Notes: generated from the letters alone by a model not told the origin. Counted from the stretch's first letter, positions 1 to 51,335 are shown. The stretch: 64,000 nt of DNA from Escherichia coli (GCF_017348835.2 NZ_CP071375.1), one strand, 5' to 3'. Program-made: numbers and translations.

Positions 1-320
1 CCTTTCGCCAGATCGCCTTCTTCCGTATCGGGATGCAACTGCGCCACGCTCATTGAGGGCGTGGGTGTGACGTAATTGGGGCTGACCACTTCCAGCAGGC
101 GCTGGGTGAAACGGGGGAATTCAGCGTCAATTTTTAGCTGCGTGCGGGCGGTCAGGAAGCTGAAGGCCTCGACCATTCGCTCTACATACGGATCGGCAAT
201 ATCCGTTCCCTGCATGCCCAGCCGGGCGGCGACTTTGGGATGACGGGCGGCAAATTCGGCTCCCGTTTCCCGCAGATAGCTTAGTTCGCGGTTGTAGTAT
301 TCCAGTAGCCGTGGATCCAT
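1..320 (-). CDS. tssF: T6SS baseplate subunit TssF, N-terminal part only (gene runs off the window start)
   Basis: Reverse-strand translation from the ATG at 320 gives [71 protein letters not shown]..., matching the conserved TssF/ImpG N-terminus. Not in the ORF track because no stop lies within the window. Confidence 0.7.
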
Positions 321-425
321 CGGTCTCTCTCTGAATTAAAAAAACGTAATGCGGCTCTGCTCCATATCCAGCGCGCTACGTACGCGGGTTCAGCCGTAAC
401 CGATGTATCTGGTGCCGCCGAGGAG

Positions 426-2591
426 ATGGCAGAACAGGCAGCGGCGGACCTGTTTGGTGCGTTGCCGGAACCGTCAGGTCTGGTTAAAGCCGCAGTAGCT
501 GCTGCGCAGGCTGCCGCTGCAGCAGCAGGGATCCCGGATATGGCTGGTGCAGTTCAGGATGCGGCGGCGTCGATTGCTGCCGGTGGACCGGGGGCGCATA
601 ACGTCACAGTAAGTGGTAGTGCGGTGCCGCCGCAGCTGCTTTTGTTTGCAGGCATGAATGGTTCGGAAGGGCTTGGAAACCTGTTTTCCTACACAGTACA
701 GCTTAAAACCCCGGATACCCTGAACCTCGGATATGTCTCCCCCGCAGCCAACCTGCCGCTCAAGCCGATGGTGGGCAAAGACCTGTGCGTCAGTATCGAA
801 CTGGACGGCGGCGGCAAACGGCATATCAGCGGGCTGGTGACAGCGGCGCGGGTGGTGGGCTATGAGGGCCGCTCGGTAACGTATGAATTACGCCTTGAGC
901 CGTGGCTGAAACTGCTGACCCATACCAGCGACTACAAAGCGTTCCAGAATAAAACCGTGGTGGATATTCTCGATGAAGTACTGGATGAATATTCCTTTCC
1001 GGTGGAAAAGCGGCTGGTGGAAAATTATCCACCCCGCGCCTGGCAGGTGCAGTATGGTGAAACCGACTTCGATTTCATCCAGCGCCTGATGCAGGAATGG
1101 GGGATTTACTGGTGGTTTGAGCACAGCGAGAACAGCCACACGCTGGTGCTGGCGGATGCCATCAATGGTCATAAAGCGTGCCCTGACTCGCCGCTGGTGG
1201 AGTGGCACCAGGAAGGGCTGAAACTGGACAAGGAATTTATCCACACCATTACGGCCAGTGAGAGGCTGCGTACTGGAAAGTGGGTGATGGACGATTTTGA
1301 TTTTATGAAGCCTCGTTCGCTGCTTAAAAGTACCGTGGCTAGTCCGCGTGATACCGGTCATGCTGAATACGAGCATTATGAATGGCCTGGTGATTACTTC
1401 ACTACGGGCGAAGGCGAGATGCTGACGCGCATTCGTATGGAAGCGCAGCGCAGCCCCGGCAGCCGGGCACATGGGGCAGGTCATATCCGCACCCTCATGA
1501 CGGGTTACACCTTTACGCTGATGAATCATCCAACGGCAGAGGTCAACCAGGAATACCTACTGGTACAGACCACGCTGTTTTTACGGGATAATGCGCAGCA
1601 CAGCGGTCAGGAGCAGCATTTTACCTATGTCACCACGTTTGAACTGCACCCCACCAGCGAAGTTTACCGCCCACAGCGAACCCTAAGCAAACCCCACACC
1701 AAAGGCCCGCAGAGCGCCATCGTCACCGGCCCGGCAGGGCAGGAAATCTGGACGGATAAATATGGCCGGGTGAAGGTGCAGTTTGGCTGGGACCGTTACC
1801 TGTACGATGCGGAACAGCCGTACACGCCGGTGGCCGCCATCACGGGGCGCGGAGAGAGCCGGAAAATCTGGTATTACCACACGGACCTGACGGGCACGGT
1901 ACAGGAGGTGACCGCGCCGGACGGGACGCTGGTGTGGGCGGGCTATCAGGCGGGATTTGGTGAAAACCGGGGCGACATCAGCAACAGCGGGGCGTACTTT
2001 GAGCAGCCGCTGCGGCTGCCGGGGCAGTATTATGATGAAGAGACGGGGCTGCACTATAATCTGTTCAGATATTATGCGCCGGAGTGCGGGAGGTTTATCA
2101 GTCAGGATCCGATTTCGATCCGTGGGGGGCTGAATCTTTACCGGTATGCGCCTAATCCGCTGAGATGGATTGATCCGCTTGGATTAGACTGGAATTATCA
2201 TTTAACAGATAGTGATGGTAAGGTTTATTATCATGGACGTGCAAGTGATAATGCGTCAATGGAAGATGTTGCCCGTCGTCACAGCAATACAACAGGAGCT
2301 GATAAGGCAAGATTTGGAGAAACAGATACCATGACACGAATAACTGAGCCGGGTACGCCAAAATTAACAGCACAAGGTGTGGAAGGTATTGCCATAGGTG
2401 ATAATACTATCGGGCGAAGAGCTGATAACGGTAATAGGGGTCGGGGTAATAATATTCGGGGTGTTAATCCCAATGCAACCAATGCTACTGAAAAACTAAA
2501 TGCGGGTAAAGAATTTTTAAATGGACGAATACCAAGTGAAATGACTGGTGAAACATTGACAGGTAAGGAGTATTTTGAATCAAAATGTTAA
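426..2591 (+). CDS. Chimeric VgrG N-terminal domain fused in frame to Rhs core C-terminus plus C-terminal toxin tip (CT1)
   Basis: 721-aa ORF. Residues ~70-455 carry VgrG motifs ([61 protein letters not shown]). From nt ~1800 the sequence becomes Rhs core ([21 protein letters not shown] ... PxxxxDPLGL, motif at 2172-2186), followed by a ~135-aa AT-rich unique tip. The true start may lie downstream of 426. Confidence 0.7.
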
Positions 2592-3463
2592 AATTAACCG
2601 ATGTAAATAAAAATGCATTAAGAATACTTAAAAAATATAACGTGCTGGCAGAAGGTGACATAATAAGAGGTCATCCATTAAGTGAGCGGGATTTGAAATA
2701 TGTTGAGGCGCATTGTATTACAACTGAAGAACGAGCCTTTTTAAATGAAAAAGGTTTGGGGTTCGGATTTATTTCTGTGACTCATGATGAAGCATTAAGA
2801 GATTCGTTTACATATTTTAAATCTTCTAATAAAAATGATGTGACAGCTTCTTTTCTGGTGAGCCTGAGTAGTGCCAGATTAGACTACAGAAGTGGATTGT
2901 CTGCATTTGCAATTATGCAAACAATGCCGATGCATGGCTTTGAACCAAATCAGGCTTCTTTTTGTAAAGTATGTTCCGCAGAAAAATATAAAAAGCATTT
3001 TGATCTAACCAGCTTAAATCAGACTCGTTTCTTTAGTGGTTCTCTAGCAGTCTTTAAAACTCCTTATGAAATTTCTTTTTTTCTGGAGCAACAATCAAAA
3101 TTGGAAGTCGTTCAGCCAACCGAAAAAGATTTCTCTATCTTTAATGCGATTTTGAAAATAATTGTTGACGCAGAATCTGGCGAAAAACTGACATCAATAA
3201 TTAAAAAAATTAGAGCGATTGATGGCTTCAGGATAACTACAGATCAGTGTCGATGTCTTCTGGAAACGCTGGGATTTTGTGGGATTCTGGAAACGAAGGA
3301 ACACAAAGGGTATCTGACTTACTTTACTAATCCTGGACTGGCTCCGAGTAAATCTCATAGTTCTAACTGGGCCTATCCGGTTGATTTCTGGACCGGAGGG
3401 GATGGAATAAATCGCGAAGCGTTAAAATTCTGGTTTGGTGAATATAAAGAAATTGTTATCTGA
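2585..3463 (+). CDS. Putative immunity protein for CT1 (292 aa, no recognised family)
   Basis: Start codon overlaps the CT1 stop (aATGTTAA); AT-rich like the toxin tip; position immediately after an Rhs CT is typical for immunity genes. Confidence 0.55.
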
Positions 3464-3557
3464 TTAATTATTTTATAAATTTTTAATCGAGGGACGGATG
3501 GAAATCAATGCCGGATCCCCACCAGTACTAACAGGCGAAAATCCGGGAGAACTGATC

Positions 3558-4020
3558 TTACGGTTGAATAAGATCGTCAATAAACACCGCACCGTCAACG
3601 GTACGCAACCAGCGTGGCGCTTTCAGTTTTGCCGCAAAGAACCAGACCAGTTCACAAAGCAGCCCCGTCAGGGGTTGTTCCATTTTAGATCCCTGCGCCT
3701 GTTCCGTCAGGAGCTGGAGTAATACCTCGCAATATTCACACAATTGCTCAGGATCCAGGTCAAAGTGCGGAAATGAGGCAGGCAGGTCGTCGAGTGTCAG
3801 GCTGTCTACCAGATGGGGTGGAATAGGATCGTTCAGCGTGGGAGACAGAATGGCGATACAGGCGCGAAGTCGTCCGAACAACGCCATTTTCAGCGCCGGA
3901 TCGTGACACTCTATAAGGGTTCAGCGAAGCGATCGCAGTGATCGGCCAGGTCTGTGAAATCGGTGGCAGAACTGAAAGGAATGGACAATAAATCATAATC
4001 AGGGGTGAGGACTGTAGCCA
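3558..4020 (-). pseudogene. Hypothetical gene of unknown function, apparently frameshifted
   Basis: ATG at 4020 preceded by a GGAGG Shine-Dalgarno; 36 codons then stop at 3910-3912. A second frame continues as the 109-aa ORF 3558..3887. No family recognised. Confidence 0.3.
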
Positions 4021-4097
4021 TAAGGCAACCTCCGATAAGTAGGCGTTAAAACCACCACCGAAGAGACCAATCTTACGGGTGGTGGAACCGGGCGGAG

Positions 4098-6932
4098 TTG
4101 GTCTTACCGGCCTTATCGGATACCGGCGCATCTTTCGATGCCACCGCCCGGCCCACCATTGAGGTACAGCCGTGCGTGCAACACAAAAAAGACGCTGGCG
4201 CGTCATGTGTCGCCGATAAGACTTATTCAGGAGACCAATCCCGACGCCTGATTTTGCAGACGCGGCATAACGATACAACGATCGCGAAATGGCGACAAAC
4301 CCCTTTCCCGGAAGGCGGCTCGCAAAATCAGAAATATCACAGGGAAAGACAGAGCGCCGCAACGCGGCGGGATGTACCGCTTCACGTACAACGAAAACCA
4401 TTTTCCGGTAGCGGTGGAACTCCCCGGCGAACGCAGGTAACGCTGGAATACGACACCCTGAGCCGGGTGGTGAAAGAGACGGACCCGGCAGGCCGGGTGA
4501 CACAGACGCAGTGGAACGGCAGTTTTGCTGAAATCACGCGCCGGGCACTGGATGACGACCACGTATGGAAGGCGGATTACAACGAACACGGCCAGGTGAT
4601 ACGGGAGACGGACCCGGAAGGGCGCGTCACGCGCTACGGGTATGATGAACAGGGGCTGGCGGTCAGCCGCACGGATGCGCGGGGCGGCGAGGCTGCGCTG
4701 GCGCATGATGCGCGCGGCCAGCTGAGGCGTTACACCGACTGTTCAGGGCGTGCCACGGGTTATGAATACGATGAAGACGGCAACCTGACGGTGGTGACGG
4801 ACGCGGAGGGGAAAACGGTACGTATCCGCTATAACCGTCTGGGACTGCCGGAGACGGTAAATCATCCCGGTAAACAGCAGGACCGTTACACGTGGAACGC
4901 GCTGGGGTTACTGAGCAGCCACCGTCGCATCACAGGCAGTGTGCAGTCCTGGCAGTATACGCCGCGCGGTCTGCTGGCGCTCCACGTAGATGAAGAGAAA
5001 CGGGAGACGCGCTGGCATTATACCGCGGAGGGATGGATTGCCAGTCTGAGCAACGGCAACGGAGCGCTTTACCGGTTCAGTCACGATGCGGACGGACGGC
5101 TGACGGGAGAACAGCGCCCGGACGGTCTGATACGGATGTTTGTGCTGAATGCGGGCGGGTATCCGGTCATCATCCAGACGCAGGGTACAGAAGGCGGGGG
5201 GCGCAATGAACAGCAGGAGCGTGACGCGCTGGGCCGCCTGCTGCGCAGTGACACGCAGCACAGTACACGGACCTTCAGCTACAACCGTCTTGACCAGATA
5301 ACGGAAGTGACGCTCACCCCGACGAAAGAAGGGGAACGGCTGCACCACATGCAGGCGGACACGGTGCGCTTTGCGTATGACCGCAGCGGCTGGCTGACGG
5401 CAGAGCACAGCGTGCACGGCAGCATAAAATATCAGCGTGACGCGCTGGGCAATCCCACCGATATCACGTTGCCGGACGGGCAGCATCTCAGTCATCTTTA
5501 CTACGGCAGCGGACATCTGCTCCAGACGGCACTGGACGGTATCACGGTCAGCGAATATGAGCGTGACAGTCTGCACCGTCAGGTGATGCGCACGCAGGGG
5601 AAACTGGCGACGTTCAGCGGCTACAACGCCGACAACCGGTTAAGCTGGCAGCGCAGTCTGCCAGGTGGCAGCCAGAATCCACAGCAGACCGGTAACCCCC
5701 CGGCGCAGAACGACAGCGTGACGGCGCGGGACTATATCTGGAATGCGGACGGTGAGGTCGGCGGCATCAATGACAAACTGCGCGGTTGCCTGGTGTTCAG
5801 CTATGACCGCAGCGGCTGGCTGACCAGTCGCACGGGTCAGATGTACGACCATGACCATTATTATTACGACAAAGCGGGCAACCTGCTGACGGACGAGTAT
5901 CAGAGCGCGGTGATGGATAACCGCCTGCCGGGCTACGGGCGTGACCGTTACCGCTATAACGAATGGGGCGAACTGACAGAGCGCAGGGACCAGCAACTGG
6001 AGTGGAATGCGCAGGGCCAGTTAACGCGGGTCATCAGCAGCAACAGCGAGACGCGGTATCAGTATGATGCGCTGGGCAGGCGTATCAGCAAGGCGACCAG
6101 CAATCTCCATACCGACCGGGGAGAACGAAGCCGGACAACGTTTGTGTGGGAAGGGGTCCGGCTGTTGCAGGAGACAACGTGGCAGGGAAAGCGGACGTAC
6201 CTGTACGACGCGGAACAGCCGTACACGCCGGTGGCCGCCATCACCGGGCGCGGAGAGAGCCGGAAAATCTGGTATTACCACACGGACCTGACGGGCACGG
6301 TACAGGAGGTGACCGCGGCGGACGGGACGCTGGTGTGGGCGGGCTATCAGGCGGGGTTCGGAGAAAACCGGGGCGACATCAGCAACAGCGGGGCGTATTT
6401 TGAACAGCCGCTGCGGCTGCCGGGGCAGTATTATGATGAAGAGACGGGGCTGCACTATAATCTGTTCAGATATTATGCGCCGGAGTGCGGGAGGTTCGTA
6501 AGCCAGGATCCGATTTCGATCCGGGGTGGTCTGAATCTTTACCGGTATGCGCCGAATCCGATTACTTGGATCGATCCGTGGGGATTGGCAAAGGGGGATT
6601 ATGGTAAAATGCCTACGTTCCCTGGTTGGCAGAAACATCATAATATTCCACAAAATATGGCTACTCATTCGGCAATTGTTGACTCTGGATTTGATATACA
6701 TAATAGTCGTAACATTACAACCTTGCCAAAAACTGGAAGTATAGATACTGCCAGAACAGTGCACAGTGGAATGCACACAGGAGATTATGACAGGATGGTA
6801 AAAAATGCTTTAGATCAAATTGACTCGTTGAATGCTTCCCCTGAGATCAAAAAAATGCATATAGAAGCCTTATCTGATGATATTGGCAATAAATTGAGAA
6901 CAAAACAAATTACGTTAAATGCTGCATGTTGA
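4098..6932 (+). CDS. Orphan rhs fragment (N-terminally truncated core with YD repeats) with toxin tip CT2
   Basis: 944-aa ORF; YD-repeat Rhs core similarity begins near nt 4330 with a frame break just upstream. Core ends at DPWGL (6573-6587), then a ~115-aa tip containing WQKHHNIPQ and a downstream His (HSGMHTGDY), possibly an HNH/AHH-type nuclease. Confidence 0.7.
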   Translation: MVLPALSDTGASFDATARPTIEVQPCVQHKKDAGASCVADKTYSGDQSRRLILQTRHNDTTIAKWRQTPFPEGGSQNQKYHRERQSAATRRDVPLHVQRKPFSGSGGTPRRTQVTLEYDTLSRVVKETDPAGRVTQTQWNGSFAEITRRALDDDHVWKADYNEHGQVIRETDPEGRVTRYGYDEQGLAVSRTDARGGEAALAHDARGQLRRYTDCSGRATGYEYDEDGNLTVVTDAEGKTVRIRYNRLGLPETVNHPGKQQDRYTWNALGLLSSHRRITGSVQSWQYTPRGLLALHVDEEKRETRWHYTAEGWIASLSNGNGALYRFSHDADGRLTGEQRPDGLIRMFVLNAGGYPVIIQTQGTEGGGRNEQQERDALGRLLRSDTQHSTRTFSYNRLDQITEVTLTPTKEGERLHHMQADTVRFAYDRSGWLTAEHSVHGSIKYQRDALGNPTDITLPDGQHLSHLYYGSGHLLQTALDGITVSEYERDSLHRQVMRTQGKLATFSGYNADNRLSWQRSLPGGSQNPQQTGNPPAQNDSVTARDYIWNADGEVGGINDKLRGCLVFSYDRSGWLTSRTGQMYDHDHYYYDKAGNLLTDEYQSAVMDNRLPGYGRDRYRYNEWGELTERRDQQLEWNAQGQLTRVISSNSETRYQYDALGRRISKATSNLHTDRGERSRTTFVWEGVRLLQETTWQGKRTYLYDAEQPYTPVAAITGRGESRKIWYYHTDLTGTVQEVTAADGTLVWAGYQAGFGENRGDISNSGAYFEQPLRLPGQYYDEETGLHYNLFRYYAPECGRFVSQDPISIRGGLNLYRYAPNPITWIDPWGLAKGDYGKMPTFPGWQKHHNIPQNMATHSAIVDSGFDIHNSRNITTLPKTGSIDTARTVHSGMHTGDYDRMVKNALDQIDSLNASPEIKKMHIEALSDDIGNKLRTKQITLNAAC

Positions 6933-6947
6933 ATAACGAGGGAATAT

Positions 6948-7538
6948 ATGATTTATTTTTTATCTGATAAAAAAAATACCTTCGGGTTGTTGCATTATGA
7001 TCATAAAACTTCGATCGACTACACAGTATTTAATGAGGGGGTTAGCATAACAGGAATAGACATTAATATTAAATATACATCAAACAATAAAAATGATTTA
7101 AAACGGCTCGAAAAGTGTAACATTATAGAAACGACAGGTCCGACATTGATAAATAATAAGATTAGACATGTTTTTGAAAAATATGCAAGCAATGCGGTTG
7201 AATTTTTTGATGTAGACATTAACGATGATATAGATTTATCAAGGAAGTTTTGTGCGATTAATTTATTATGGGTCTTACCATGTTGTGATATGGAAAAGAG
7301 TGAATTTACATTAAGTAATTTCGATCTTGCCAATCCTAACTATATGTTTATGTATAAAGTTCTAAAAAATGATATTAATAGAGAGGTGGATATATTTCGG
7401 TGTAAGGAGCAGCATACTGAAATTGTTGTAAGTGAAGGAGTTAAGCAAGCATGTATGGACGCGGGAATTAAAGGATTGCGTTTTTGTACGGCTATTGATT
7501 TAACTCCAAAAAATAGATCTGAGTGTGTATTTATTTAA
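6948..7538 (+). CDS. Putative immunity protein for CT2 (196 aa)
   Basis: AT-rich ORF 15 bp downstream of the CT2 stop, same strand. Confidence 0.5.
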   Translation: MIYFLSDKKNTFGLLHYDHKTSIDYTVFNEGVSITGIDINIKYTSNNKNDLKRLEKCNIIETTGPTLINNKIRHVFEKYASNAVEFFDVDINDDIDLSRKFCAINLLWVLPCCDMEKSEFTLSNFDLANPNYMFMYKVLKNDINREVDIFRCKEQHTEIVVSEGVKQACMDAGIKGLRFCTAIDLTPKNRSECVFI

Positions 7539-7559: not shown

Positions 7560-9656
7560 GGGTATGACGAACAGTTCCTGCCGGAGACGGTCAGCCACCC
7601 CGGTAAACAGCAGGACCGTTACACCTGGAACGCACTGGGGTTACTGAGCAGCCATCGTCGCATCACGGGCAGTGTGCAGTCCTGGCAGTATACGCCGCGC
7701 GGGATGCTGGCGCGCCATACGGATGAAGAGAAACGGGAGACGCGCTGGCAGTACACCCCGGAAGGGCTGGTTGCCAGTCTGAGCAACGGCAACGGAGCGC
7801 TTTACCGGTTCAGTCACGATGCGGACGGACGGCTGACGGGAGAACAGCGCCCGGACGGTCTGATACGGATGTTTGTGCTGAATGCGGGCGGGTATCCGGT
7901 CATCATCCAGACGCAGGGTACAGAAGGCGGGGGGCGCAATGAACAGCAGGAGCGTGACGCGCTGGGCCGCCTGCTGCGCAGTGACACGCAGCACAGTACA
8001 CGGACCTTCAGCTACAACCGTCTTGACCAGATAACGGAAGTGACGCTCACCCCCACGGAAGAAGGGGAACGGCTGCACCACATGCAGGCGGACACGGTGC
8101 GCTTTGCGTATGACCGCAGCGGCTGGCTGACGGCAGAGCACAGCGTGCACGGCAGCATAAAATATCAGCGTGACGCGCTGGGCAATCCCACCGACATCAC
8201 GTTACCGAACGGGCAGCACCTCAGCCATCTTTACTACGGCAGCGGGCATCTGCTCCAGACGGCACTGGACGGTATCACGGTCAGTGAATATGAGCGTGAC
8301 AGTCTGCACCGTCAGGTGATGCGCACGCAGGGGAAACTGGCGACGTTCAGCGGCTACAACGCCGACAACCGGTTAAGCTGGCAGCGCAGCCTGCCAGGTG
8401 GCAGCCAGAACCCACAGCAGGCCGGTAACCCCCCGGCGCAGAAAGACAGCGTGACAGCGCGGGATTATATCTGGAACGCAGACGGTGAAGTCGGCGGCAT
8501 CAATGACAAACTGCGCGGTTGCCTGGTGTTCAGCTATGACCGCAGCGGCTGGCTGACCAGTCGCACGGGTCAGATGTACGACCATGACCATTATTATTAC
8601 GACAAAGCGGGCAATCTGCAGACGGATGAGCATCAGGGAGCGGTGCCGGATAACCGCCTGCCGGGCTACGGGCGTGACCGCTACCGCTATAACGAATGGG
8701 GCGAACTGACAGAGCGCAGGGACCAGCAACTGGAGTGGAATACGCAGGGCCAGTTAACGCGGGTCATCAGCAGCAACAGCGAGACGCGGTATCAGTATGA
8801 TGCGCTGGGCAGGCGTATCAGCAAGGCGACCAGCAATCTCCATACCGACCGGGGAGAACGAAGCCGGACAACGTTTGTGTGGGAAGGGTTCCGGCTGTTG
8901 CAGGAGACAACGTGGCAGGGAAAGCGGACATACCTGTACGACGCGGAACAGCCGTACACGCCGGTGGCGGCCATCACGGGGCGCGGAGAGAGCCAGAAAA
9001 TCTGGTATTACCACACGGACCTGACGGGCACGGTACACGAGGTAACCGCGCCGGACGGGACGCTGGTGTGGGCGGGCTACCAGGCGGGATTTGGCGAAAA
9101 CCGGGGCGACATCAGCAACAGCGGGGCGTACTTTGAGCAGCCGCTGCGACTGCCGGGGCAGTACTTTGACGAAGAAACAGGGCTGCATTACAATCTGTTC
9201 AGGTATTATGCGCCGGAGTGCGGGAGGTTCGTAAGCCAGGATCCGATAGGGTTGCTTGGTGGGCTGAACTTATATGCTTATGCGCCTAATCCGCTGTCAT
9301 GGATCGATCCGTTAGGTTTGACTCCATGTGCAAATGGGGGGAATGCTAAAAAACATGGTGGCACAGGACATAATAATTTTATTGATAATCTTATTGCGGA
9401 TGCTCGCAGTCAGGGTGCTACAAATATCAGGAAAAACCAATGGCAGGTAGATGTTAATGGAAATGTTGTTGGTAAAAATAGACCGGATGTTCAATTTGAT
9501 TTAAATGGTAAACATTATAATATTGAGGTTGATACAACAATAAAAGGCAGCGTTGGTCACCAAAATACTATACCTACACTTGATCCCAACTCAAGAAATA
9601 CATTTTGGCTAATTGATGACTTAGGGAATATTTTAAATGGCCACTCAACCATCTGA
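7560..9656 (+). CDS. Orphan rhs fragment with toxin tip CT3
   Basis: Rhs core similarity starts ~7560 (ORF-track start 7674). DPLGL at 9306-9320, then a ~110-aa tip with RPDVQF ... NIEVDTTIK, possibly a PD-(D/E)xK-like nuclease. Core is near-identical to the next fragment at an offset of 2586 bp. Confidence 0.7.
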   Translation, partial: GYDEQFLPETVSHPGKQQDRYTWNALGLLSSHRRITGSVQSWQYTPRGMLARHTDEEKRETRWQYTPEGLVASLSNGNGALYRFSHDADGRLTGEQRPDGLIRMFVLNAGGYPVIIQTQGTEGGGRNEQQERDALGRLLRSDTQHSTRTFSYNRLDQITEVTLTPTEEGERLHHMQADTVRFAYDRSGWLTAEHSVHGSIKYQRDALGNPTDITLPNGQHLSHLYYGSGHLLQTALDGITVSEYERDSLHRQVMRTQGKLATFSGYNADNRLSWQRSLPGGSQNPQQAGNPPAQKDSVTARDYIWNADGEVGGINDKLRGCLVFSYDRSGWLTSRTGQMYDHDHYYYDKAGNLQTDEHQGAVPDNRLPGYGRDRYRYNEWGELTERRDQQLEWNTQGQLTRVISSNSETRYQYDALGRRISKATSNLHTDRGERSRTTFVWEGFRLLQETTWQGKRTYLYDAEQPYTPVAAITGRGESQKIWYYHTDLTGTVHEVTAPDGTLVWAGYQAGFGENRGDISNSGAYFEQPLRLPGQYFDEETGLHYNLFRYYAPECGRFVSQDPIGLLGGLNLYAYAPNPLSWIDPLGLTPCANGGNAKKHGGTGHNNFIDNLIADARSQGATNIRKNQWQVDVNGNVVGKNRPDVQFDLNGKHYNIEVDTTIKGSVGHQNTIPTLDPNSRNTFWLIDDLGNILNGHSTI

Positions 9657-10221
9657 TAATAAAAAATTAGTGTTTGCTGTAGTGAACAGTGATTTTAATG
9701 ATATAGAAAGAACTATCCATAATGGATTGAACTGGCCGAGTGAACCAATAAGTAGTCGAAAACTTATTGAGGAAATACACTTGACTATTCAACGTGGTGG
9801 GGTCTTGCCGTCCGAGGGGGTTTTCTATTATCCGTGTATAAATGACAGCAAATTAATTTTTCTGTCTAATTTATCTGATGGATGGGACTCTTTACTTTAT
9901 TGCCTGTCAAAACAGAATAAATCTAGCTATCTACTGTTTAGGTTATTGATGGGGGAATACCCTCTGATGGAAATGAGTTTTATAGAGTCAGGGAAAACAA
10001 TACGTTTAATTAGAGTGATAAAAGAAAATAAATGGATTTTTTATGAGGTCGGGGAACCGTTATGGTTTGAAGAAAAGGAAAACTATTCAAAAAGAAGAAT
10101 CGCAGATAGAATTACTTATGATCTCTTACTCTCCTATTCACGGAAAAATGGCATTGACTTTGATTCCCCCGCATTTTTTAAAACGGAAAAAGAATCACTA
10201 TGGTTGAATGAAATACGATAG
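9637..10221 (+). CDS. Putative immunity protein for CT3 (194 aa)
   Basis: Overlaps the CT3 stop by 20 bp; AT-rich. Confidence 0.5.
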   Translation: MATQPSDNKKLVFAVVNSDFNDIERTIHNGLNWPSEPISSRKLIEEIHLTIQRGGVLPSEGVFYYPCINDSKLIFLSNLSDGWDSLLYCLSKQNKSSYLLFRLLMGEYPLMEMSFIESGKTIRLIRVIKENKWIFYEVGEPLWFEEKENYSKRRIADRITYDLLLSYSRKNGIDFDSPAFFKTEKESLWLNEIR

Positions 10222-10234
10222 TTTATTTAAATAA

Positions 10235-10272
10235 AAAGCCGGAAAAGAAATTAAACTTTCCCGGCTTTTTTA
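10235..10272. terminator. Hairpin plus T-tract, likely bidirectional intrinsic terminator
   Basis: aaagccgg ... ccggcttttttatt between the immunity-3 stop and the convergent SymE-like gene. Confidence 0.5.
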
Positions 10273-10276
10273 TTAT

Positions 10277-10457
10277 TTAACTCTCGTTCAGCACACTAAA
10301 CATCCCGTCCCGCATCCCCTTAACTGCCTGTTTAACCTGATAAAGCTCCCTGCGCAGTTCCTGTACTTCGTTGTTATCCGCAAGCAGGATCAGACATCCC
10401 TCCGAGATCTTCACGGTAACGCCCGTGCCGATCTCAAATCCCGCTTCTCTCAGCCAT
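10277..10457 (-). pseudogene. SymE-like toxin gene, 5'-truncated by the adjacent rhs fragment boundary
   Basis: C-terminal 60 aa (AKWLREAGFEIGTGVTVKISEGCLILLADNNEVQELRRELYQVKQAVKGMRDGMFSVLNES) resemble SymE ([28 protein letters not shown]). Similarity ends where rhs core sequence starts at ~10458. Confidence 0.55.
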
Positions 10458-12335
10458 TTGGCGCTGAATGCGGGCGGGTTTCCGGTCATCATCCAGACGC
10501 AGGGCACAGAGGGCGGGGTGCGTAATGAGCGGCAGGAGCGTGATGCGCTGGGCCGCCTGCTGCGCAGTGACACGCAGCACAGTACACGGACCTTCAGCTA
10601 CAACCGTCTTGACCAGATAACGGAAGTGACGCTCACCCCCACGGAAGAAGGGGAACGGCTGCACCACATGCAGGCGGACACGGTGCGCTTTGCGTATGAC
10701 CGCAGCGGCTGGCTGACGGCAGAGCACAGCGTGCACGGCAGCATAAAATATCAGCGTGACGCGCTGGGCAATCCCACCGACATCACGTTACCGAACGGGC
10801 AGCACCTCAGCCATCTTTACTACGGCAGCGGGCATCTGCTCCAGACGGCACTGGACGGTATCACGGTCAGTGAATATGAGCGTGACAGTCTGCACCGTCA
10901 GGTGATGCGCACGCAGGGGAAACTGGCGACGTTCAGCGGCTACAACGCCGACAACCGGTTAAGCTGGCAGCGCAGCCTGCCAGGTGGCAGCCAGAACCCA
11001 CAGCAGGCCGGTAACCCCCCGGCGCAGAAAGACAGCGTGACAGCGCGGGATTATATCTGGAACGCAGACGGTGAAGTCGGCGGCATCAATGACAAACTGC
11101 GCGGTTGCCTGGTGTTCAGCTATGACCGCAGCGGCTGGCTGACCAGTCGCACGGGTCAGATGTACGACCATGACCATTATTATTACGACAAAGCGGGCAA
11201 TCTGCAGACGGATGAGCATCAGGGAGCGGTGCCGGATAACCGCCTGCCGGGCTACGGGCGTGACCGCTACCGCTATAACGAATGGGGCGAACTGACAGAG
11301 CGCAGGGACCAGCAACTGGAGTGGAATACGCAGGGCCAGTTAACGCGGGTCATCAGCAGCAACAGCGAGACGCGGTATCAGTATGATGCGCTGGGCAGGC
11401 GTATCAGCAAGGCGACCAGCAATCTCCATACCGACCGGGGAGAACGAAGCCGGACAACGTTTGTGTGGGAAGGGTTCCGGCTGTTGCAGGAGACAACGTG
11501 GCAGGGAAAGCGGACATACCTGTACGACGCGGAACAGCCGTACACGCCGGTGGCGGCCATCACGGGGCGCGGAGAGAGCCAGAAAATCTGGTATTACCAC
11601 ACGGACCTGACGGGCACGGTACACGAGGTAACCGCGCCGGACGGGACGCTGGTGTGGGCGGGCTACCAGGCGGGATTTGGTGAAAACCGGGGCGACATCA
11701 GCAACAGCGGGGCGTACTTTGAGCAGCCGCTGCGGCTGCCGGGGCAGTATTATGATGAAGATACGGGGCTGCACTATAATCTGTTCAGATATTATGCGCC
11801 GGAGTGCGGGCGGTTTATCAGTCAGGACCCGATAGGGCTGGCGGGAGGAATAAACCTATATGCTTATGCGCCTAATCCGCTAAGTTATATTGATCCTCTT
11901 GGGCTTTGTAAATTAAGGGGAAGCGATGGGCGCTACAGAAGTGCACAGAATATTCAGGAAGAAATAGGCGGCCTACCCAATTTTGCAGGAAAAACTCCAG
12001 GAGAAATACGACAAACTTTGCGTAATCGAGGTTATTCGTCGGTACAAGCGTATAGTGGAGGAGAGGTCTGGACAAAAGCATTACCTGACGGAAATACTGT
12101 TGCAGTGAGGCTTGATCCGGCAAATCCTCGCTCACCTTCACATTATGCTGATGCTGTACCTCATGCTCATATTGAAACAGTTCCAACATCCAGTGTTTCT
12201 AATGGGAATTATCGCCCGCGAGACGTGACTGGCAGGCATACTGCCACTGGTGGGGTTTCTGATCGAGGAACAAATCCGAATCATAACGCTGATGTTTACA
12301 TTCCAATGTCTCCGGGACGATTCCCATATGATTAA
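10458..12335 (+). CDS. Orphan rhs fragment with toxin tip CT4
   Basis: Rhs core similarity from ~10458 (ORF-track start 10371 is a read-through of the SymE antisense). DPLGL at 11892-11906, then a ~143-aa unique tip with no recognised family. Confidence 0.7.
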   Translation: MALNAGGFPVIIQTQGTEGGVRNERQERDALGRLLRSDTQHSTRTFSYNRLDQITEVTLTPTEEGERLHHMQADTVRFAYDRSGWLTAEHSVHGSIKYQRDALGNPTDITLPNGQHLSHLYYGSGHLLQTALDGITVSEYERDSLHRQVMRTQGKLATFSGYNADNRLSWQRSLPGGSQNPQQAGNPPAQKDSVTARDYIWNADGEVGGINDKLRGCLVFSYDRSGWLTSRTGQMYDHDHYYYDKAGNLQTDEHQGAVPDNRLPGYGRDRYRYNEWGELTERRDQQLEWNTQGQLTRVISSNSETRYQYDALGRRISKATSNLHTDRGERSRTTFVWEGFRLLQETTWQGKRTYLYDAEQPYTPVAAITGRGESQKIWYYHTDLTGTVHEVTAPDGTLVWAGYQAGFGENRGDISNSGAYFEQPLRLPGQYYDEDTGLHYNLFRYYAPECGRFISQDPIGLAGGINLYAYAPNPLSYIDPLGLCKLRGSDGRYRSAQNIQEEIGGLPNFAGKTPGEIRQTLRNRGYSSVQAYSGGEVWTKALPDGNTVAVRLDPANPRSPSHYADAVPHAHIETVPTSSVSNGNYRPRDVTGRHTATGGVSDRGTNPNHNADVYIPMSPGRFPYD

Positions 12336-12346
12336 TGTGAGGTTTT

Positions 12347-12610
12347 ATGAATATCCGAAATCAATATAATGAAGCCTTAAATAAATTAGAAGTTGATGTT
12401 AATGATGGTTTGAGAGATTTAATAAACATATATTGTGTGGCTATTGATTCTTTTGAAAATGATATCGTTGACTCGATTGCTTTATACGTGATTGATATGG
12501 GAAATAAAGATACTTGTCGATATCTACAAGAAGTCTTATCAGAGAATGAAGATCCTTATTTAGTAAAAGAATTTAATGCATGGATAAAAGAAATTAAGAA
12601 AAAATATTAA
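12347..12610 (+). CDS. Putative immunity protein for CT4 (87 aa)
   Basis: AT-rich ORF 11 bp after the CT4 stop. Confidence 0.5.
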   Translation: MNIRNQYNEALNKLEVDVNDGLRDLINIYCVAIDSFENDIVDSIALYVIDMGNKDTCRYLQEVLSENEDPYLVKEFNAWIKEIKKKY

Positions 12611-12615
12611 AATAA

Positions 12616-12655
12616 AAGCCGGGAAGGTTATAAAATCTTCCCGGCTTTTTATTTT
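12616..12655. terminator. Intrinsic terminator hairpin (9-bp stem gccgggaag/cttcccggc) with T-tract
   Basis: Perfect inverted repeat followed by tttttattttt. Confidence 0.6.
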
Positions 12656-12900
12656 TAATTCTCGTTCAGTACACTAAACATCCCGTCCCGCATCCCCTTA
12701 ACCGCCTGTTTAACCTGATAAAGTTCCCTGCGCAGTTCCTGTACTTCGTTGTTATCGGCAAGCAGGATCAGGCAGCCTTCCGAGATCTTCACAGTAACGC
12801 CCGTGCCGATCGAAAATTCCGCTTCTCTCAGCCATTTGGCGCTGATTTTGATCACCGGCGTGTCGCTGCTGTTGGGCAGATATCCTACGGTACAACGGCG
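12655..12900 (-). CDS. SymE-like toxin homologue (AbrB-fold type I toxin family), possibly defective at its start
   Basis: 66-aa track ORF begins at a GTG; the SymE-like frame extends further upstream (TPEVTISKTQRRCTVGY...) with no in-frame ATG, while an ATG sits in another frame. Confidence 0.5.
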   Translation of the reverse strand, partial: RRCTVGYLPNSSDTPVIKISAKWLREAEFSIGTGVTVKISEGCLILLADNNEVQELRRELYQVKQAVKGMRDGMFSVLNEN

Positions 12901-26400: not shown

Positions 26401-26828
26401 CAAGACGTCGCGGTAACAGTGCTGGAAACAGAAACAGGTCGTTACTCTGACACCCTGCGTTCAGCGCTGGTTTCTCTGAATGGCGACAACGCATGGGCAT
26501 TAAGCGAAAGCTGGTATGGCACTATTCAGTGGATTTGTCGGAGTCCGTATCGCCCACATCATGGGCGTAAAAACTGGTTTCTGGGCATTGGGCGTTTTAC
26601 TGCTGATGAGCAGGAACAATCCGACGCGGTCCGTTATGAGACGCTGCGTTCGTCGGGGCCGGGCGGTCAACATGTCAATAAAACCGATTCGGCGGTGCGC
26701 GCCACGCATCTGGCTACCTGGATTAGCGTGAAGGTTCAGTCAGAGCGCAGCCAGCATGCCAACAAGCGGCTGGCACGATTGCTGATTGAACCGCCCCGGG
26801 TTTCCTGGAGAGTGTTTTATCTGTGAAC

Positions 26829-27716
26829 TCAGGCTGCCAGATCATTATTTCCGATGGAAGCATAATAAGCTTTTTCTGCTTCTGCCGGAGGAATATGGCC
26901 CAGCCTTTCCAGCAATCGTCGATTGTTATACCAGTCCACCCACGTTAGTGTGGCCAGTTCCACTTCTGTCCGGTTTTTCCAGCTCTTACGGTGTATTACC
27001 TCCGCTTTGTAAAGACCATTGATGCTCTCCGCCATCGCGTTGTCATACGAGTCGCCAGTACTCCCTGTTGATGCCAGTAATCCGGCTTCCTTAAGCCGCT
27101 GCGTGTAGGCCAGCGATACATACTGAGAACCTTTATCACTGTGATGGATTGTGCCGGACGGCCGACGGGCCCACAACGCCTGCTCCAGTGCATCCAGCAC
27201 GAATGTTGTTTCCATGGATGATGAGACCTGCCATCCCACGATGTATCCGGCGAACACATCAATGATGAACGCCACATAAACGAAGCCCTGCCATGTGCTT
27301 ACCCAGGTAAAATCAGCCACCCACAACTGGTCTGGACGTTCTGCCACGAACTGACGGTTTACGCGGTCGCATGCGGCAACGGCTTTCCGGCTGACGGTAG
27401 TGCGGACCTTTTTACCCCGGAGAACACCGGCAAGTCCCATAACTGCCATGAGACGTGCCACAGTGCATCTGGCCACTCTGATACCTTCCCGTAACAACTG
27501 ACGCCAGACTTTACGCACACCGTATACCTGGTGATTTTCATCGTATACGCGCTGTATCTCTTTCTTCAGCCAGTCATCGTGCTGCGCACGGGCACTGCGT
27601 TTATCCGGATGATGTCGCTGTTGCTGACAATGGTAATACGTTGACGGGGCAATATGCAGTTCGCTGCATACCGGTCCGACCCCGTACTGCTCACGCAGCT
27701 TATCCAGCAGTGGCAT
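26829..27716 (-). CDS. IS629-like transposase OrfB (DDE catalytic domain)
   Basis: 295 aa; start overlaps the orfA stop, consistent with IS3-type frameshifting. Confidence 0.85.
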   Translation of the reverse strand: MPLLDKLREQYGVGPVCSELHIAPSTYYHCQQQRHHPDKRSARAQHDDWLKKEIQRVYDENHQVYGVRKVWRQLLREGIRVARCTVARLMAVMGLAGVLRGKKVRTTVSRKAVAACDRVNRQFVAERPDQLWVADFTWVSTWQGFVYVAFIIDVFAGYIVGWQVSSSMETTFVLDALEQALWARRPSGTIHHSDKGSQYVSLAYTQRLKEAGLLASTGSTGDSYDNAMAESINGLYKAEVIHRKSWKNRTEVELATLTWVDWYNNRRLLERLGHIPPAEAEKAYYASIGNNDLAA

Positions 27717-28042
27717 TATTTTTTCCAGAGGCGGTCGAACTCCGCCTTCGCAAAATAAGCGGAAGCCTGGCGAAGGATATCGTTACTGCGGCGCAGTTCA
27801 CGATTTTCACGTTCCAGCTCTTTCAGACGCTGACGTTCAGCGGTGGTGAGTCCACCATCACCACTCCCGGTATCCCGCTCATGCTGGCGAACCCAGACAC
27901 GCAGAGTCTCCGGCGTACAGCCAATCTTTGGGGCAATGGAACAAATTGCCGCCCACTGTGAGTCATATTCATCCTGACTTTCCAGAACCATACGAATCGC
28001 CCGCTGACGGACTTCGGGGGAAAAACGAGTATTTTTAGTCAT
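27716..28042 (-). CDS. IS629-like transposase OrfA
   Basis: 108 aa, [26 protein letters not shown]..., helix-turn-helix. Confidence 0.85.
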
Positions 28043-28288
28043 CCTGTTTACCTCTTTCTCAGGGAGTTTAGTCTCCAGGATTTCCGGGGCGGTTCAGATT
28101 GCCTGGAAGCTGGAGCAACAGCAACAGGAAAATAGCGCAGTGCTGAAATCGCAGCGGCGAATGTTCCATCACCAGATTGAACGTGGCAACCCGCGACGAA
28201 CGTTTACAGGGATGGCTTTTATCGAAGGATAATGAAGGATGAAACTGCCGGAAGGCGATTAAACGCCATCCGGCAGCAAATCAAATAA

Positions 28289-44417: not shown

Positions 44418-45001
44418 TGGCATTCAGAATGAGTGAACAACCACGGACCATAAAAATTTATAATCTGCTGGCCGGAACTAATGAATTTATTGGTGAAGGT
44501 GACGCATATATTCCGCCTCATACAGGTCTGCCAGCAAACAGTACCGATATTGCACCGCCAGATATTCCGGCTGGCTTTGTGGCTGTTTTCAACAGTGATG
44601 AGGCATCGTGGCATCTCGTTGAAGATCATCGGGGAAAAACCGTCTATGACGTGGCTTCCGGCGACGCGTTATTTATTTCTGAACTTGGCTCGTTACCGGA
44701 AAATGTCACCTGGTTATCGCCGGAAGGGGAATATCAGAAGTGGAACGGCACAGCCTGGGTGAAGGATACGGAAGCAGAAAAACTGTTCCGGATCCGGGAG
44801 GCGGAAGAAACAAAAAACAACCTGATGCAGGTAGCCAGTGAGCATATTGCGCCACTTCAGGATGCTGCAGATCTGGAAATCGCAACGGAGGAAGAAAACT
44901 CGTTGCTGGAAGCCTGGAAAAAGTATCGGGTGTTGCTGAACCGTGTTAATACAACAACTGCACCTGATATTGAGTGGCCTACGAACCCTGTCAGGGAGTA
45001 A
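44417..45001 (+). CDS. tfa: Tail fibre assembly protein Tfa
   Basis: 194-aa product; ATG overlaps the stf stop. Confidence 0.85.
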
Positions 45002-45362
45002 TCATTGGGATTATGCCGCAGAAACGTTGTATGCAATAACGTTTTGCGGTTGGCTGGTGAACTTCCGATAGTGCGGGTGTTGAATGATTTCCAGCTGCTA
45101 CCGATTTTACATATTTTTGCCTGAGAGGATTTGAACCGCCTCCACAGACTCTACATCACAGATAACCACTGTCACGAGGACTGTTAGTGCTGTGAGTTCA
45201 ACGGGGCGATGTACGCTACCTTTAATCAAGAGGGAGAGGTACGTTGCTAAGATGAGTTTATATTCATCAACTAAGTGCAGATCAGCGAATAACTAAAACT
45301 TGGCTGTCTGAACCGCCCCGGAAATCCTGGAGACTAAACTCCCTGAGAAAGAGGTAAACAGG

Positions 45363-45689
45363 ATGACTAAAAATACTCGTTTTTCCCCCGAAGTCCGTCA
45401 GCGGGCGATTCGTATGGTTCTGGAAAGTCAGGATGAATATGACTCACAGTGGGCGGCAATTTGTTCCATTGCCCCAAAGATTGGCTGTACGCCGGAGACT
45501 CTGCGTGTCTGGGTTCGCCAGCATGAGCGGGATACCGGGAGTGGTGATGGTGGACTCACCACCGCTGAACGTCAGCGTCTGAAAGAGCTGGAACGTGAAA
45601 ATCGTGAACTGCGCCGCAGTAACGATATCCTTCGCCAGGCTTCCGCTTATTTTGCGAAGGCGGAGTTCGACCGCCTCTGGAAAAAATAA
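45363..45689 (+). CDS. IS629-like transposase OrfA
   Basis: Product identical to the copy at 27716..28042. Confidence 0.85.
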
Positions 45690-46576: not shown

Positions 46577-46618
46577 GTTCACAGATAAAACACTCTCCAG
46601 GAAACCCGGGGCGGTTCA

Positions 46619-51090: not shown

Positions 51091-51335
51091 TGCATTGAAT
51101 GATAAAATGGCGCAAATACAGCGCCATTTTTACAGGTTAAAAACATTGCTTTTTATATTCTGATTCAGATAGTCAGTGAGTATATAGTGCTACTTCAGGA
51201 TGATGTAGATCCGAAGAACACTACAGAAGAGAGGCATTGTTGCTGGCAAATACAAGAAGTTTCGGGTTTTGTTGTCCCTGAAAACGAAGCCCCGCTATTA
51301 TCGCTGGCGGGGCAGTGCAATTAATTATTGTATGT

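What the first reader, a model, noticed from the sequence alone, without database searches (positions are those of the whole stretch)
7900..11830. Near-identical 1.3-kb rhs core direct repeats at a 2586-bp offset, with a more diverged third copy
Antisense ORFs at 8373..8729 and 10959..11315 are identical in sequence, and those at 8792..8977 and 11378..11563 are identical, so core stretches ~7905-9240 and ~10490-11825 are essentially the same DNA offset by 2586 bp. The core at 5145-6570 is homologous but visibly diverged. Identity stops about 50 codons before DPxGL. Such direct repeats are substrates for recombination that can delete or swap tips, as has been described for orphan Rhs toxins, and they are also an assembly hazard.
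Basis: partly seen in the sequence, partly recalled or inferred. Interest (0 to 1): 0.5.

Follow-up and report, generated by a model that had tools for sequence, protein, structure and literature searches.

The report
Orphan Rhs toxin cassette array
The repeats are real: they are the leftover conserved "core" pieces of three silent Rhs toxin/immunity cassettes in E. coli PE164. This is a well-known arrangement, and related strains show these repeats recombining to delete, swap and overwrite cassettes.

Summary
Window 7877-9295 and 10463-11881 align without gaps at 97.7%. They include a perfect 1136-bp stretch (7959-9094 = 10545-11680) at a 2586-bp offset. Copy A (5144-6514) is 96% identical to both.

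The window is E. coli PE164 (100% match). The repeats are GC-rich 3' rhs core fragments. Each ends in PxxxxDPxGL and is followed by an AT-rich toxin tip and an immunity gene. Together they form an orphan rhs-CT/immunity array, which lies downstream of a decayed T6SS island and a destroyed vgrG-rhs main gene.

The perfect B=C stretch is private to this assembly. In seven other assemblies that carry both cassettes, B and C differ at 33-44 sites there. PE164's C matches its sisters exactly, while its B carries C alleles at 37 consecutive diagnostic sites. This is a C-to-B gene-conversion tract of 0.87-1.14 kb or, less likely, a Unicycler repeat collapse.

Related strains show in-register crossovers that delete tip A, tips A or B mounted on a full-length rhs, a 2160-bp deletion at a 23-bp YD-repeat microhomology, and other conversion patches.

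Interest is low to moderate.

The parts
387..1796 (+). vgrG fragment. It lacks the first 32 codons and everything after about codon 470, and is fused in frame to the rhs core tail (ORF 426-2591).
   Evidence: 99.0% identical to L004 vgrG 6001-7413. TIGR03361 VgrG matches aa 67-458. RefSeq annotates it as a pseudogene missing its N- and C-termini.
1797..2186 (+). Core tail 0. This is the fourth copy of the repeat, the last 390 bp of rhs core ending in [10 protein letters not shown].
   Evidence: 90-94% identical to 6193-6578, 8931-9323 and 11517-11902. Equals L004 rhs 11970-12359. Motif located.
2187..3463 (+). Tip 0 (2187-2591, 134 aa, no known domain) and its presumed immunity gene (2585-3463).
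   Evidence: ORFs. GC 40% and 36%. No Pfam, NCBIfam, PHROG or PDB match.
3464..4363 (-). Spacer with isrK-like and C4-like RNAs (4185-4263, 4075-4163) upstream of a frameshifted 154-aa ORF (3558-4021).
   Evidence: Rfam hits above gathering score. RefSeq calls the ORF 'frameshifted'. The spacer is conserved in L003 and L004.
4364..6587 (+). Core fragment A (2.2 kb of rhs core, with a 1-nt deletion near 4435). The repeat copy shared with B and C starts at 5144 (rel 0).
   Evidence: Frameshift located against the intact L010 rhs.
6588..7538 (+). Tip A (AHH nuclease, 6588-6932) and its Imm11 immunity gene (6948-7538).
   Evidence: Pfam AHH at 2.6e-14. Imm11 from RefSeq and precomputed Pfam.
7578..9320 (+). 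Core fragment B. It starts 40 nt after the Imm11 stop codon, has no PAAR or N-terminal region, and ends in PLSWIDPLGL.
7959..9094 (+). The stretch of B that is perfectly identical to C (maximum extent of the conversion tract). The minimum tract is 8102-8969, holding 37 consecutive diagnostic sites with C alleles.
9321..10221 (+). Tip B (9321-9656, 111 aa, no known domain) and immB (9637-10221).
   Evidence: Among 5,426 complete E. coli genomes it is found only in PE164. The exact immB protein is nevertheless indexed in 100 blocks of the public assembly collection, from which 10 loci were retrieved.
10224..10492 (-). Hairpin terminator (10227-10270) plus symE-like ORF 1 (10277-10492). This is the left copy of the 244-bp repeat and abuts the start of core C.
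10463..11906 (+). Core fragment C (1444 bp, ends in PLSYIDPLGL). It is the donor of the conversion tract (10545-11680).
   Evidence: It is identical over all 1444 bp to the C core of L009 and L011.
11907..12610 (+). Tip C (11907-12335, 142 aa, no known domain) and immC (12347-12610).
12605..12855 (-). Hairpin terminator (12614-12649) plus symE-like ORF 2 (12655-12855). This is the right copy of the 244-bp repeat and the end of the array, just before yafV.
8535..8557 (+). 23-bp YD-repeat motif TATGACCGCAGCGGCTGGCTGAC. It occurs twice per core, 426 bp apart: 5376, 5802, 8109, 8535, 10695, 11121. The copies at 8535 and 10695 are the end points of the F2_81 deletion.

Best explanation
The region is an array of three silent ('orphan') rhs-CT/immunity cassettes, A, B and C. 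A fourth tip sits on the remnant of the main gene. The array lies at the yafV end of the aspV type VI secretion island of E. coli PE164.

Cassette structure. Each cassette keeps a 1.4-2.2 kb 3' fragment of the GC-rich rhs core ending in PxxxxDPxGL. An unrelated AT-rich toxin tip and its immunity gene follow. The direct repeats are these core fragments. They were left behind as successive tips were displaced downstream, which is the C-terminal displacement model.

Normal state versus PE164. In this lineage the cores are normally about 96% identical. In PE164 a non-reciprocal gene conversion copied 0.87-1.14 kb of core C into core B, which created the perfect 1136-bp identity.

Recombination. 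The cores act as homology arms. Crossovers between them delete cassettes or mount a different tip on a full-length rhs. Conversion homogenises them. Short YD-repeat microhomologies allow out-of-register deletions.

Functional state in PE164. Only tssA-tssG-tssF of the island's T6SS core genes are annotated beside the locus. vgrG is truncated at both ends. The EagR chaperone gene and the 5' 3.4 kb of rhs are deleted. None of the four toxins can therefore be delivered from this locus. The immunity genes, and possibly internally transcribed tips, are what can still function.

Shown: the repeat anatomy, domain content, population variants and allele pattern. Inferred: that the conversion is real rather than an assembly artefact, and any present-day function.
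For: Identity of the window. It matches E. coli PE164 at 100%, and the RefSeq annotation lists RHS pseudogenes, AHH, Imm11 and SymE-family genes.

Rhs nature of the repeats. RHS_repeat, TEN_YD-shell and RHS domains are present, and tip A is an AHH nuclease. Rhs_assc_core and VgrG are found by NCBIfam. The PxxxxDPxGL motif lies at the end of each core. GC is 60-61% in the cores and 26-46% in the tips and immunity genes.

Destroyed main gene. There is a 4556-bp deletion relative to the intact vgrG-DcrB-rhs of L004, with a 3-bp overlap at the junction. Next to tRNA-Asp only tssA, tssG and tssF are annotated.

Conversion tract.
- B and C differ at 0 sites in rel 82-1217 in PE164, against 33-44 sites in L005, L007, L009, L010, L011, L013 and L014.
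- PE164 C has 0 mismatches in 1444 bp against the C of L009 and L011.
- PE164 B differs from the B of its sisters at 37-38 sites, all switched to the C allele.
- 37 of the 41 differences between PE164 and L011 over 13.9 kb fall in 8102-8969.
- The 83 B/C diagnostic sites read 8 B, then 37 C, then 38 B.

Conversion tracts occur elsewhere in the same array.
- An A-type patch of about 1.1 kb sits in the C core of L005 (a 73-kb contig) and of L013 (a 5.46-Mb contig), two independent assemblies.
- An A-type patch sits in the B core of L010.
- A C-type patch covering rel 738-804 sits in the A core of F2_81.

Crossovers and tip swaps.
- L005 and L013 versus L014 show A x B crossovers at two different points, each deleting 2733 bp.
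- F2_81 has a 2160-bp deletion between the 23-mers at 8535 and 10695.
- L010 carries the AHH tip, and L006/L008 carry tip B, on a full-length prePAAR-PAAR-Rhs next to vgrG and DcrB.

Literature.
- PMC2935791 describes tip displacement and arrays of dissociated tips with conserved cores.
- PMC3967940 describes main/orphan recombination over 522 bp of 95% identity.
Against: The perfect B=C tract is seen in only one assembly. The paper that describes PE164 names Illumina reads and Unicycler in its general methods and does not mention long reads, so a repeat collapse cannot be excluded. No independent record of the converted B product was found. No reads were available.

Toxin and immunity activities are assumed from architecture. 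Only tip A has a recognised domain.

Whether PE164 has another T6SS or a full-length rhs of the same clade elsewhere in its genome was not determined.
Confidence: 0.75

Rival explanations
1. The perfect 1136-bp B=C identity is an assembly artefact. In a short-read-first hybrid assembly (Unicycler), the diverged B arm of the graph was dropped or mis-bridged, and the C path was used twice. The real PE164 genome would then have about 96%-identical cores like its sisters.
For: The identity is unique to PE164 among eight comparable assemblies. The PE164 paper names Illumina and Unicycler in its general methods and reports no long-read platform. With k of about 127, the 37 sites collapse into only a few linked bubbles. 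An 'all C' outcome is therefore not very improbable (my inference).
Against: The tract is clean, with sharp boundaries and intact B-specific flanks on both sides. Comparable kb-scale tracts exist in other assemblies of this array, and one is seen identically in two independent assemblies of very different contiguity (L005, a 73-kb contig, and L013, a 5.46-Mb contig). Arms this long exceed the usual bulge-removal limits of the assembler (my knowledge, not tested).
Confidence: 0.2
2. B and C are near-identical because one cassette is a very recent tandem duplicate of the other, and its tip and immunity gene were later replaced.
For: The units are in tandem with a regular 2586-bp offset. Both have the same right-hand terminator/symE-like block.
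Against: Sister strains have the same B and C tips, flanks and 5' boundaries but cores that are 3-4% diverged. PE164 B keeps B-specific alleles on both sides of the tract. B and C also have different 5' boundaries (7578 vs 10463).
Confidence: 0.03
3. The identity is kept by purifying selection on a functional protein-coding core, without any recombination.
For: The core encodes conserved YD repeats.
Against: Synonymous sites are identical too. The fragments lack starts and N-terminal domains, and A is frameshifted. The same cores differ by 3-4% in sister strains.
Confidence: 0.01

Closest known systems
Salmonella Typhimurium LT2 rhs-main / rhs-CT-orphan locus (Koskiniemi et al. 2014, PMC3967940)
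   Same: An orphan tip and immunity gene lie downstream of a T6SS-linked rhs. They share a stretch of about 95%-identical core with it. Recombination in that stretch mounts the orphan tip on the full-length gene and deletes the intervening tip and immunity gene. L010, L006 and L008 look like this outcome.
   Different: Here there are three orphans with 1.4-2.2 kb of shared core, against one orphan with 522 bp. The main gene, the chaperone gene and most of the island's T6SS genes are deleted in PE164. The events are inferred from natural variants, not observed in culture.
C-terminal displacement arrays of enterobacterial rhs loci (Jackson et al. 2009, PMC2935791)
   Same: GC-rich conserved core, AT-rich tips, strings of dissociated tips each with a partial core downstream of the intact gene, and cores within a locus that are (near-)identical.
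   Different: That paper reports identical cores within a locus. In this lineage the cores are usually about 96% identical and mosaic, and the perfect identity in PE164 is a private tract.
Rhs toxin/immunity arrays of bee-gut symbionts (Steele et al. 2017, PMC5727410) and T6SS immunity-gene arrays of Vibrio cholerae (Kirchberger et al. 2017, PMC5361080)
   Same: Both accumulate displaced effector tips and immunity genes by recombination, giving arrays of orphan modules. I saw only their titles and abstracts.
   Different: They are different organisms and effector families. I made no direct sequence comparison.
Rhs orphans acting as internally transcribed toxin-antitoxin-like modules in Salmonella (Starsta et al. 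2020, PMC7043789)
   Same: A -10-like box (TATAAT in copies 0, A and C; TACAAT with a TTGACG -35 in B) lies about 100 nt upstream of PxxxxDPxGL. This is where the Salmonella P2 start sites lie (89 nt upstream).
   Different: This is only a consensus match within a conserved coding motif. No expression data exist for this locus.
Silent-cassette gene conversion systems (Neisseria pilS/pilE, mafB arrays), cited as analogues in PMC2935791
   Same: Non-reciprocal copying occurs between tandem partial gene copies that share conserved blocks.
   Different: Here conversion is seen in the conserved block, not in the variable part. There is no evidence of programmed variation.

Membership tests
Rhs / YD-repeat polymorphic toxin (T6SS-linked rhs) | YD/RHS repeats forming the shell-encoding core | tested here: met
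   Pfam RHS_repeat and TEN_YD-shell match A, B and C. Only the 3' part of the core is present in each copy.
Rhs / YD-repeat polymorphic toxin (T6SS-linked rhs) | RHS-associated core domain ending in PxxxxDPxGL, followed by a variable tip | tested here: met
   The motifs end at 2186, 6587, 9320 and 11906. TIGR03696 and PF03527 match. The sequences after the motif are unrelated to each other.
Rhs / YD-repeat polymorphic toxin (T6SS-linked rhs) | N-terminal prePAAR/PAAR delivery region, with adjacent vgrG and EagR (DcrB/DUF1795) chaperone genes | tested here: not met
   This is absent in PE164. vgrG is truncated, and the DcrB gene and the rhs 5' 3.36 kb are deleted. It is present in relatives L006, L008, L010, L003 and L004. 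The PE164 locus is therefore a remnant, not a functional effector gene.
Orphan rhs-CT/immunity cassette | A 5'-truncated core fragment without its own delivery domain, lying downstream of the main rhs, followed by a tip and a small immunity ORF | tested here: met
   Core B starts 40 nt after the Imm11 stop. Core C abuts the symE-like gene. A is frameshifted. The AHH/Imm11 pair is recognised.
Orphan rhs-CT/immunity cassette | The tip is toxic and the downstream gene gives specific protection | not testable with these tools
   Tips 0, B and C and their immunity genes have no Pfam, NCBIfam, PHROG or PDB match.
Orphan rhs-CT/immunity cassette | Can be mounted on a full-length rhs by homologous recombination in the shared core | tested here: met
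   This was tested by comparison only. The same tips A and B sit on intact full-length Rhs in L010 and in L006/L008. Crossover points were mapped in L005, L013 and L014.
Gene conversion tract | Non-reciprocal: donor unchanged, recipient altered over one continuous run, flanks retained | tested here: met
   C is identical to the sister C copies. B carries 37 consecutive C alleles flanked by 8 and 38 B alleles. The caveat is that this rests on a single assembly.
SymE type I toxin | Match to the SymE family above the curated cut-off, and a SymR-like antisense RNA | tested here: inconclusive
   NCBIfam PRK13605 scores 34 and 32 bits against a cut-off of 132. A precomputed PF08845 hit exists. There are only sub-threshold Rfam isrA and Ssr1 matches on the opposite strand.

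The most novel reading that the evidence does not exclude
The lineage has lost the T6SS machinery and the main rhs at this site, yet the array appears to be actively maintained rather than simply decaying. All four tips and all four immunity genes are intact. Each tip has a -10-like box at the position of the Salmonella internal promoter. Two cassettes end in a symE-like/antisense-RNA-like module.

On this reading the cassettes would persist as self-stabilising toxin-antitoxin-like and immunity modules. Intra-array gene conversion would keep their cores homogeneous enough to be re-armed by any incoming full-length rhs. The symE-like block would serve as a second (right-hand) homology arm for cassette exchange.
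Probability: 0.15. Interest if true: 0.45.

Novelty: already known. Interest (0 to 1): 0.25.

Why it matters
This is a clean natural example of how Rhs toxin arsenals are reshuffled. A handful of near-clonal isolates differ almost only by crossovers, deletions and conversion tracts inside one cassette array.

It has practical value in two ways. It flags a place where hybrid assemblies may be wrong. It also shows that copy number and tip content at this locus should not be trusted from short reads.

It does not reveal a new kind of system. Orphan Rhs arrays, tip displacement and main/orphan recombination are all established.

Tried and rejected
- I looked for an independent record of PE164's converted B product (650 aa) by exact lookup. 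None is on record, so the conversion rests on one assembly.
- I searched cassette B against 5,426 complete E. coli genomes. Its tip and immunity gene are found only in PE164. Draft assemblies had to be reached through the exact immB protein instead.
- I tried to name tips 0, B and C and their immunity genes with NCBIfam, Pfam, PHROGs and PDB sequences. Nothing was found.
- I read the paper that describes PE164 for its assembly method. Its general methods mention only Illumina and Unicycler, and the text does not mention T6SS or Rhs.
- I considered and rejected recent tandem duplication and purifying selection as causes of the identity. The allele pattern and the sister strains contradict both.
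- I considered the symE-like block as a universal right-hand cassette boundary. I rejected 'universal' because in L006 and L008 most cassettes lack it.
- My first attempt at the allele table was swamped by out-of-register copies. I redid it as pairwise counts and site painting.

Full report
**1. The observation.** A self-comparison of the first 16 kb against the whole window gives one family of direct repeats.
- Window 7877-9295 aligns with 10463-11881 without gaps over 1419 bp, with 33 mismatches (97.7%), at an offset of 2586 bp.
- All mismatches lie at the ends of the alignment. The central 1136 bp (7959-9094 = 10545-11680) is perfectly identical.
They are a side effect of duplicating GC-rich coding DNA.
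- A third copy is about 96% identical: 5144-6514 against C is 95.8% and against B is 96.3%. It shares a further 300 bp of 5' homology with B (4845-6579 vs 7578-9312, 94.8%).
- The only other large repeat in the 64-kb window is an unrelated 1312-bp IS pair.

**2. What the DNA is.** The first 13 kb of the window match the chromosome of E. coli PE164, a pig isolate, at 100%. RefSeq annotates the region as a string of RHS pseudogenes with an AHH protein, an Imm11 protein and SymE-family genes. It lies between tssF and yafV-ivy-fadE.
- Each repeat is the 3' part of an rhs core. Pfam finds RHS_repeat, TEN_YD-shell and RHS domains.
- Each copy ends in a PxxxxDPxGL motif, ending at 2186, 6587, 9320 and 11906.
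- After each motif the sequences become unrelated and AT-rich. Cores are 60-61% GC, and tips and downstream ORFs are 26-46% GC.
- Tip A is an AHH nuclease followed by Imm11. Tips 0, B and C and their downstream ORFs match nothing in NCBIfam, Pfam, PHROGs or PDB sequences.
- Core B begins 40 nt after the Imm11 stop codon. Core C abuts an antisense symE-like gene. Core A carries a 1-nt deletion near 4435.
- None of the three has a PAAR or N-terminal delivery region. These are therefore orphan rhs-CT/immunity cassettes.

**3. State of the main gene.** The ORF at 426-2591 is an in-frame fusion of a vgrG fragment (VgrG family, aa 67-458) to the last 110 residues of Rhs core plus tip 0.
- Against the intact vgrG-DcrB-rhs arrangement of strain PapRG-06-5 (L004), window 387-1799 equals vgrG 6001-7413 (99%), and 1797-2186 equals rhs 11970-12359.
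- A 4556-bp deletion with a 3-bp overlap has therefore removed the vgrG 3' end, the DcrB/EagR chaperone gene and 3.36 kb of rhs.
- vgrG also lacks its first 32 codons.
- Upstream, only tssA, tssG and tssF are annotated between tRNA-Asp and the locus.
- The island is thus a remnant, and no tip can be delivered from this locus. The same fusion is present in F2_81 and in seven draft assemblies, so it is real and inherited.

**4. Population evidence for recombination.** The exact immB protein led to ten further assemblies of the locus (L005-L014).
- L007, L009, L011 and L012 have the PE164 layout (0, A, B, C) and are 99.5-99.7% identical to the window over 13.9 kb.
- L005, L013 and L014 are 2733 bp shorter, which equals the A-B spacing. 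They lack tip A and Imm11.
- Site painting places the crossover for L005 and L013 in the 283-bp stretch where A and B are identical. For L014 it lies between rel 450 and 519. That means two different crossover points.
- L010 has intact vgrG, DcrB and a 1365-aa prePAAR-PAAR-Rhs carrying the AHH tip, followed by orphans B and C.
- L006 and L008 carry tip B on the full-length gene, followed by four other orphans.
- The complete genome F2_81 is 99.7% identical to PE164 but 2160 bp shorter.
  - B and C are joined there at a 23-bp motif, TATGACCGCAGCGGCTGGCTGAC, which encodes YDRSGWLT.
  - The motif occurs twice in every core, 426 bp apart.
  - The F2_81 hybrid is out of register by 426 bp, which keeps the frame, and has lost tip B and immB.

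**5. The perfect B=C identity is private to PE164.**
- In L005, L007, L009, L010, L011, L013 and L014, B and C differ at 33-44 sites within the stretch that is perfectly identical in PE164.
- PE164's C core is identical over all 1444 bp to that of L009 and L011. PE164's B core differs from the sisters' B at 37-38 sites between rel 225 and 1092, each switched to the C allele.
- Of the 41 differences between PE164 and L011 across 13.9 kb, 37 fall in 8102-8969. Only two more occur in the next 6.3 kb.
- The 83 sites that distinguish B from C read 8 B, then 37 C, then 38 B along PE164's B copy.
- This is the signature of a non-reciprocal transfer from C into B, at least 868 bp and at most 1136 bp long.
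- Other patches of the same kind exist:
  - an A-type patch of about 1.1 kb in the C core of both L005 and L013;
  - an A-type patch in the B core of L010;
  - a C-type patch at rel 738-804 in the A core of F2_81.

**6. The caveat.** The paper that describes PE164 names Illumina reads and Unicycler in its general methods and mentions no long-read platform. A short-read-first hybrid assembler can reuse one arm of a repeat bubble, which would produce exactly an identical stretch. No second record of the converted B product exists in the collections I could query.
- The tract is clean.
- Both of its flanks are intact.
- Comparable tracts occur in other assemblies, one of them identically in two independent assemblies of very different contiguity.
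For these reasons I put about 0.75-0.8 on a real conversion and about 0.2 on an artefact. Either way the underlying repeats (about 96% identical, 1.4 kb, three and a half copies) are real and shared by many strains.

**7. How it works.** This part is inferred from the anatomy, the variants and the literature.
- New tips enter by recombination in the conserved core and push the resident tip and immunity gene downstream. This builds the array (PMC2935791).
- The retained core fragments then serve as homology for RecA-type crossovers. These delete intervening cassettes or mount an orphan tip on the full-length gene, as shown experimentally in Salmonella over 522 bp of 95% identity (PMC3967940).
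- Gene conversion among the fragments keeps them similar.
- In PE164 the delivery half is gone. What can still act are the immunity genes and, possibly, internally transcribed tips.
- A -10-like box lies about 100 nt upstream of PxxxxDPxGL. It reads TATAAT in copies 0, A and C, and TACAAT with a TTGACG -35 in B. The Salmonella internal P2 start sites map to this position.
- This is only a consensus match inside a conserved coding motif, and it is untested.

**8. Comparison and verdict.** The locus meets the defining features of orphan Rhs cassettes. It fails the features of a functional T6SS Rhs effector locus, because it has no PAAR region, no chaperone gene and no intact vgrG. Everything seen here has precedent: displaced tips with conserved cores, main/orphan recombination and immunity arrays. 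The one new detail is a strain-private conversion tract together with a well-resolved set of natural recombinants. Novelty is low.

Noticed in passing
window 387-2591: There is an in-frame vgrG'-'rhs fusion ORF (721 aa). It was made by a 4556-bp deletion, with a 3-bp junction overlap, that removed the vgrG 3' end, the DcrB/EagR chaperone gene and the 5' 3.36 kb of rhs. vgrG also lacks its first 32 codons (breakpoint at 387). The fusion is shared by F2_81 and seven draft assemblies.
   Followed up: yes
left of the window (L015; PE164 3979951-3984091) and window 1-320: Between tRNA-Asp (aspV) and the vgrG remnant, only tssA, tssG and tssF are annotated. The rest of the T6SS gene cluster is absent at this site.
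   Followed up: partly
window 4075-4276 (-) and 3558-4021 (-): Rfam finds isrK (65.8 bits), C4 antisense RNA (70.6 bits) and a sub-threshold c4-a1b1 target. They lie in a row upstream of a frameshifted 154-aa ORF, in the spacer between imm0 and orphan A. This phage P1/P7-like immunity-RNA arrangement sits inside an rhs array. The spacer is conserved in L003 and L004, where the ORF is intact. The ORF has no PHROG match.
   Followed up: partly
window 10224-10492 and 12605-12855: A 244-bp repeat (90.6%) holds a strong hairpin terminator and an antisense symE-like ORF after cassettes B and C. The first ORF appears to take its start codon from the antisense of rhs core C. Rfam gives sub-threshold Ssr1 (248 and 150 bits, gathering 820) and isrA (36 and 28 bits, gathering 51) matches on the + strand there. 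This may be a type I toxin/antisense-RNA module linked to rhs cassettes. One paper notes symE next to orphan hcp genes in Pantoea (PMC3942780).
   Followed up: partly
window 2040-2070, 6440-6470, 9166-9194, 11760-11790: A -10-like box (CACTATAATCT) lies about 100 nt upstream of PxxxxDPxGL in copies 0, A and C. In copy B it reads TACAAT and has a TTGACG -35. This matches the position of the internal P2 promoters of the Salmonella rhs main and orphan genes (PMC7043789). It overlaps the conserved [10 protein letters not shown] coding motif.
   Followed up: partly
window 5376, 5802, 8109, 8535, 10695, 11121: An exact 23-mer, TATGACCGCAGCGGCTGGCTGAC (YDRSGWLT), occurs twice in each core, 426 bp apart. 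It is the junction of the out-of-register 2160-bp deletion in strain F2_81.
   Followed up: yes
window 26787-28098 and 45307-46618: There is a perfect 1312-bp inverted repeat. Both copies carry an ALIL pseudoknot (an IS3-family frameshift element). They lie 17 kb apart, which makes them a potential inversion substrate and another assembly hazard. Rfam IS009 hits at 44760-44958 and 51096-51293 lie nearby.
   Followed up: no
window 12886: A single-base difference from L007 and L011 lies in the 5' part of the second symE-like ORF. RefSeq calls this ORF a 66-aa hypothetical protein in PE164, but an 86-aa SymE-family protein in F2_81.
   Followed up: no
L005 and L013, C core (locus coordinates about 11000-12130): In these strains, which have lost cassette A, about 1.1 kb of the C core (rel 177-1299) is A-type. 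The same patch occurs in two independent assemblies, one a 73-kb contig and one a 5.46-Mb contig. This shows that kb-scale conversion is real in this array.
   Followed up: yes
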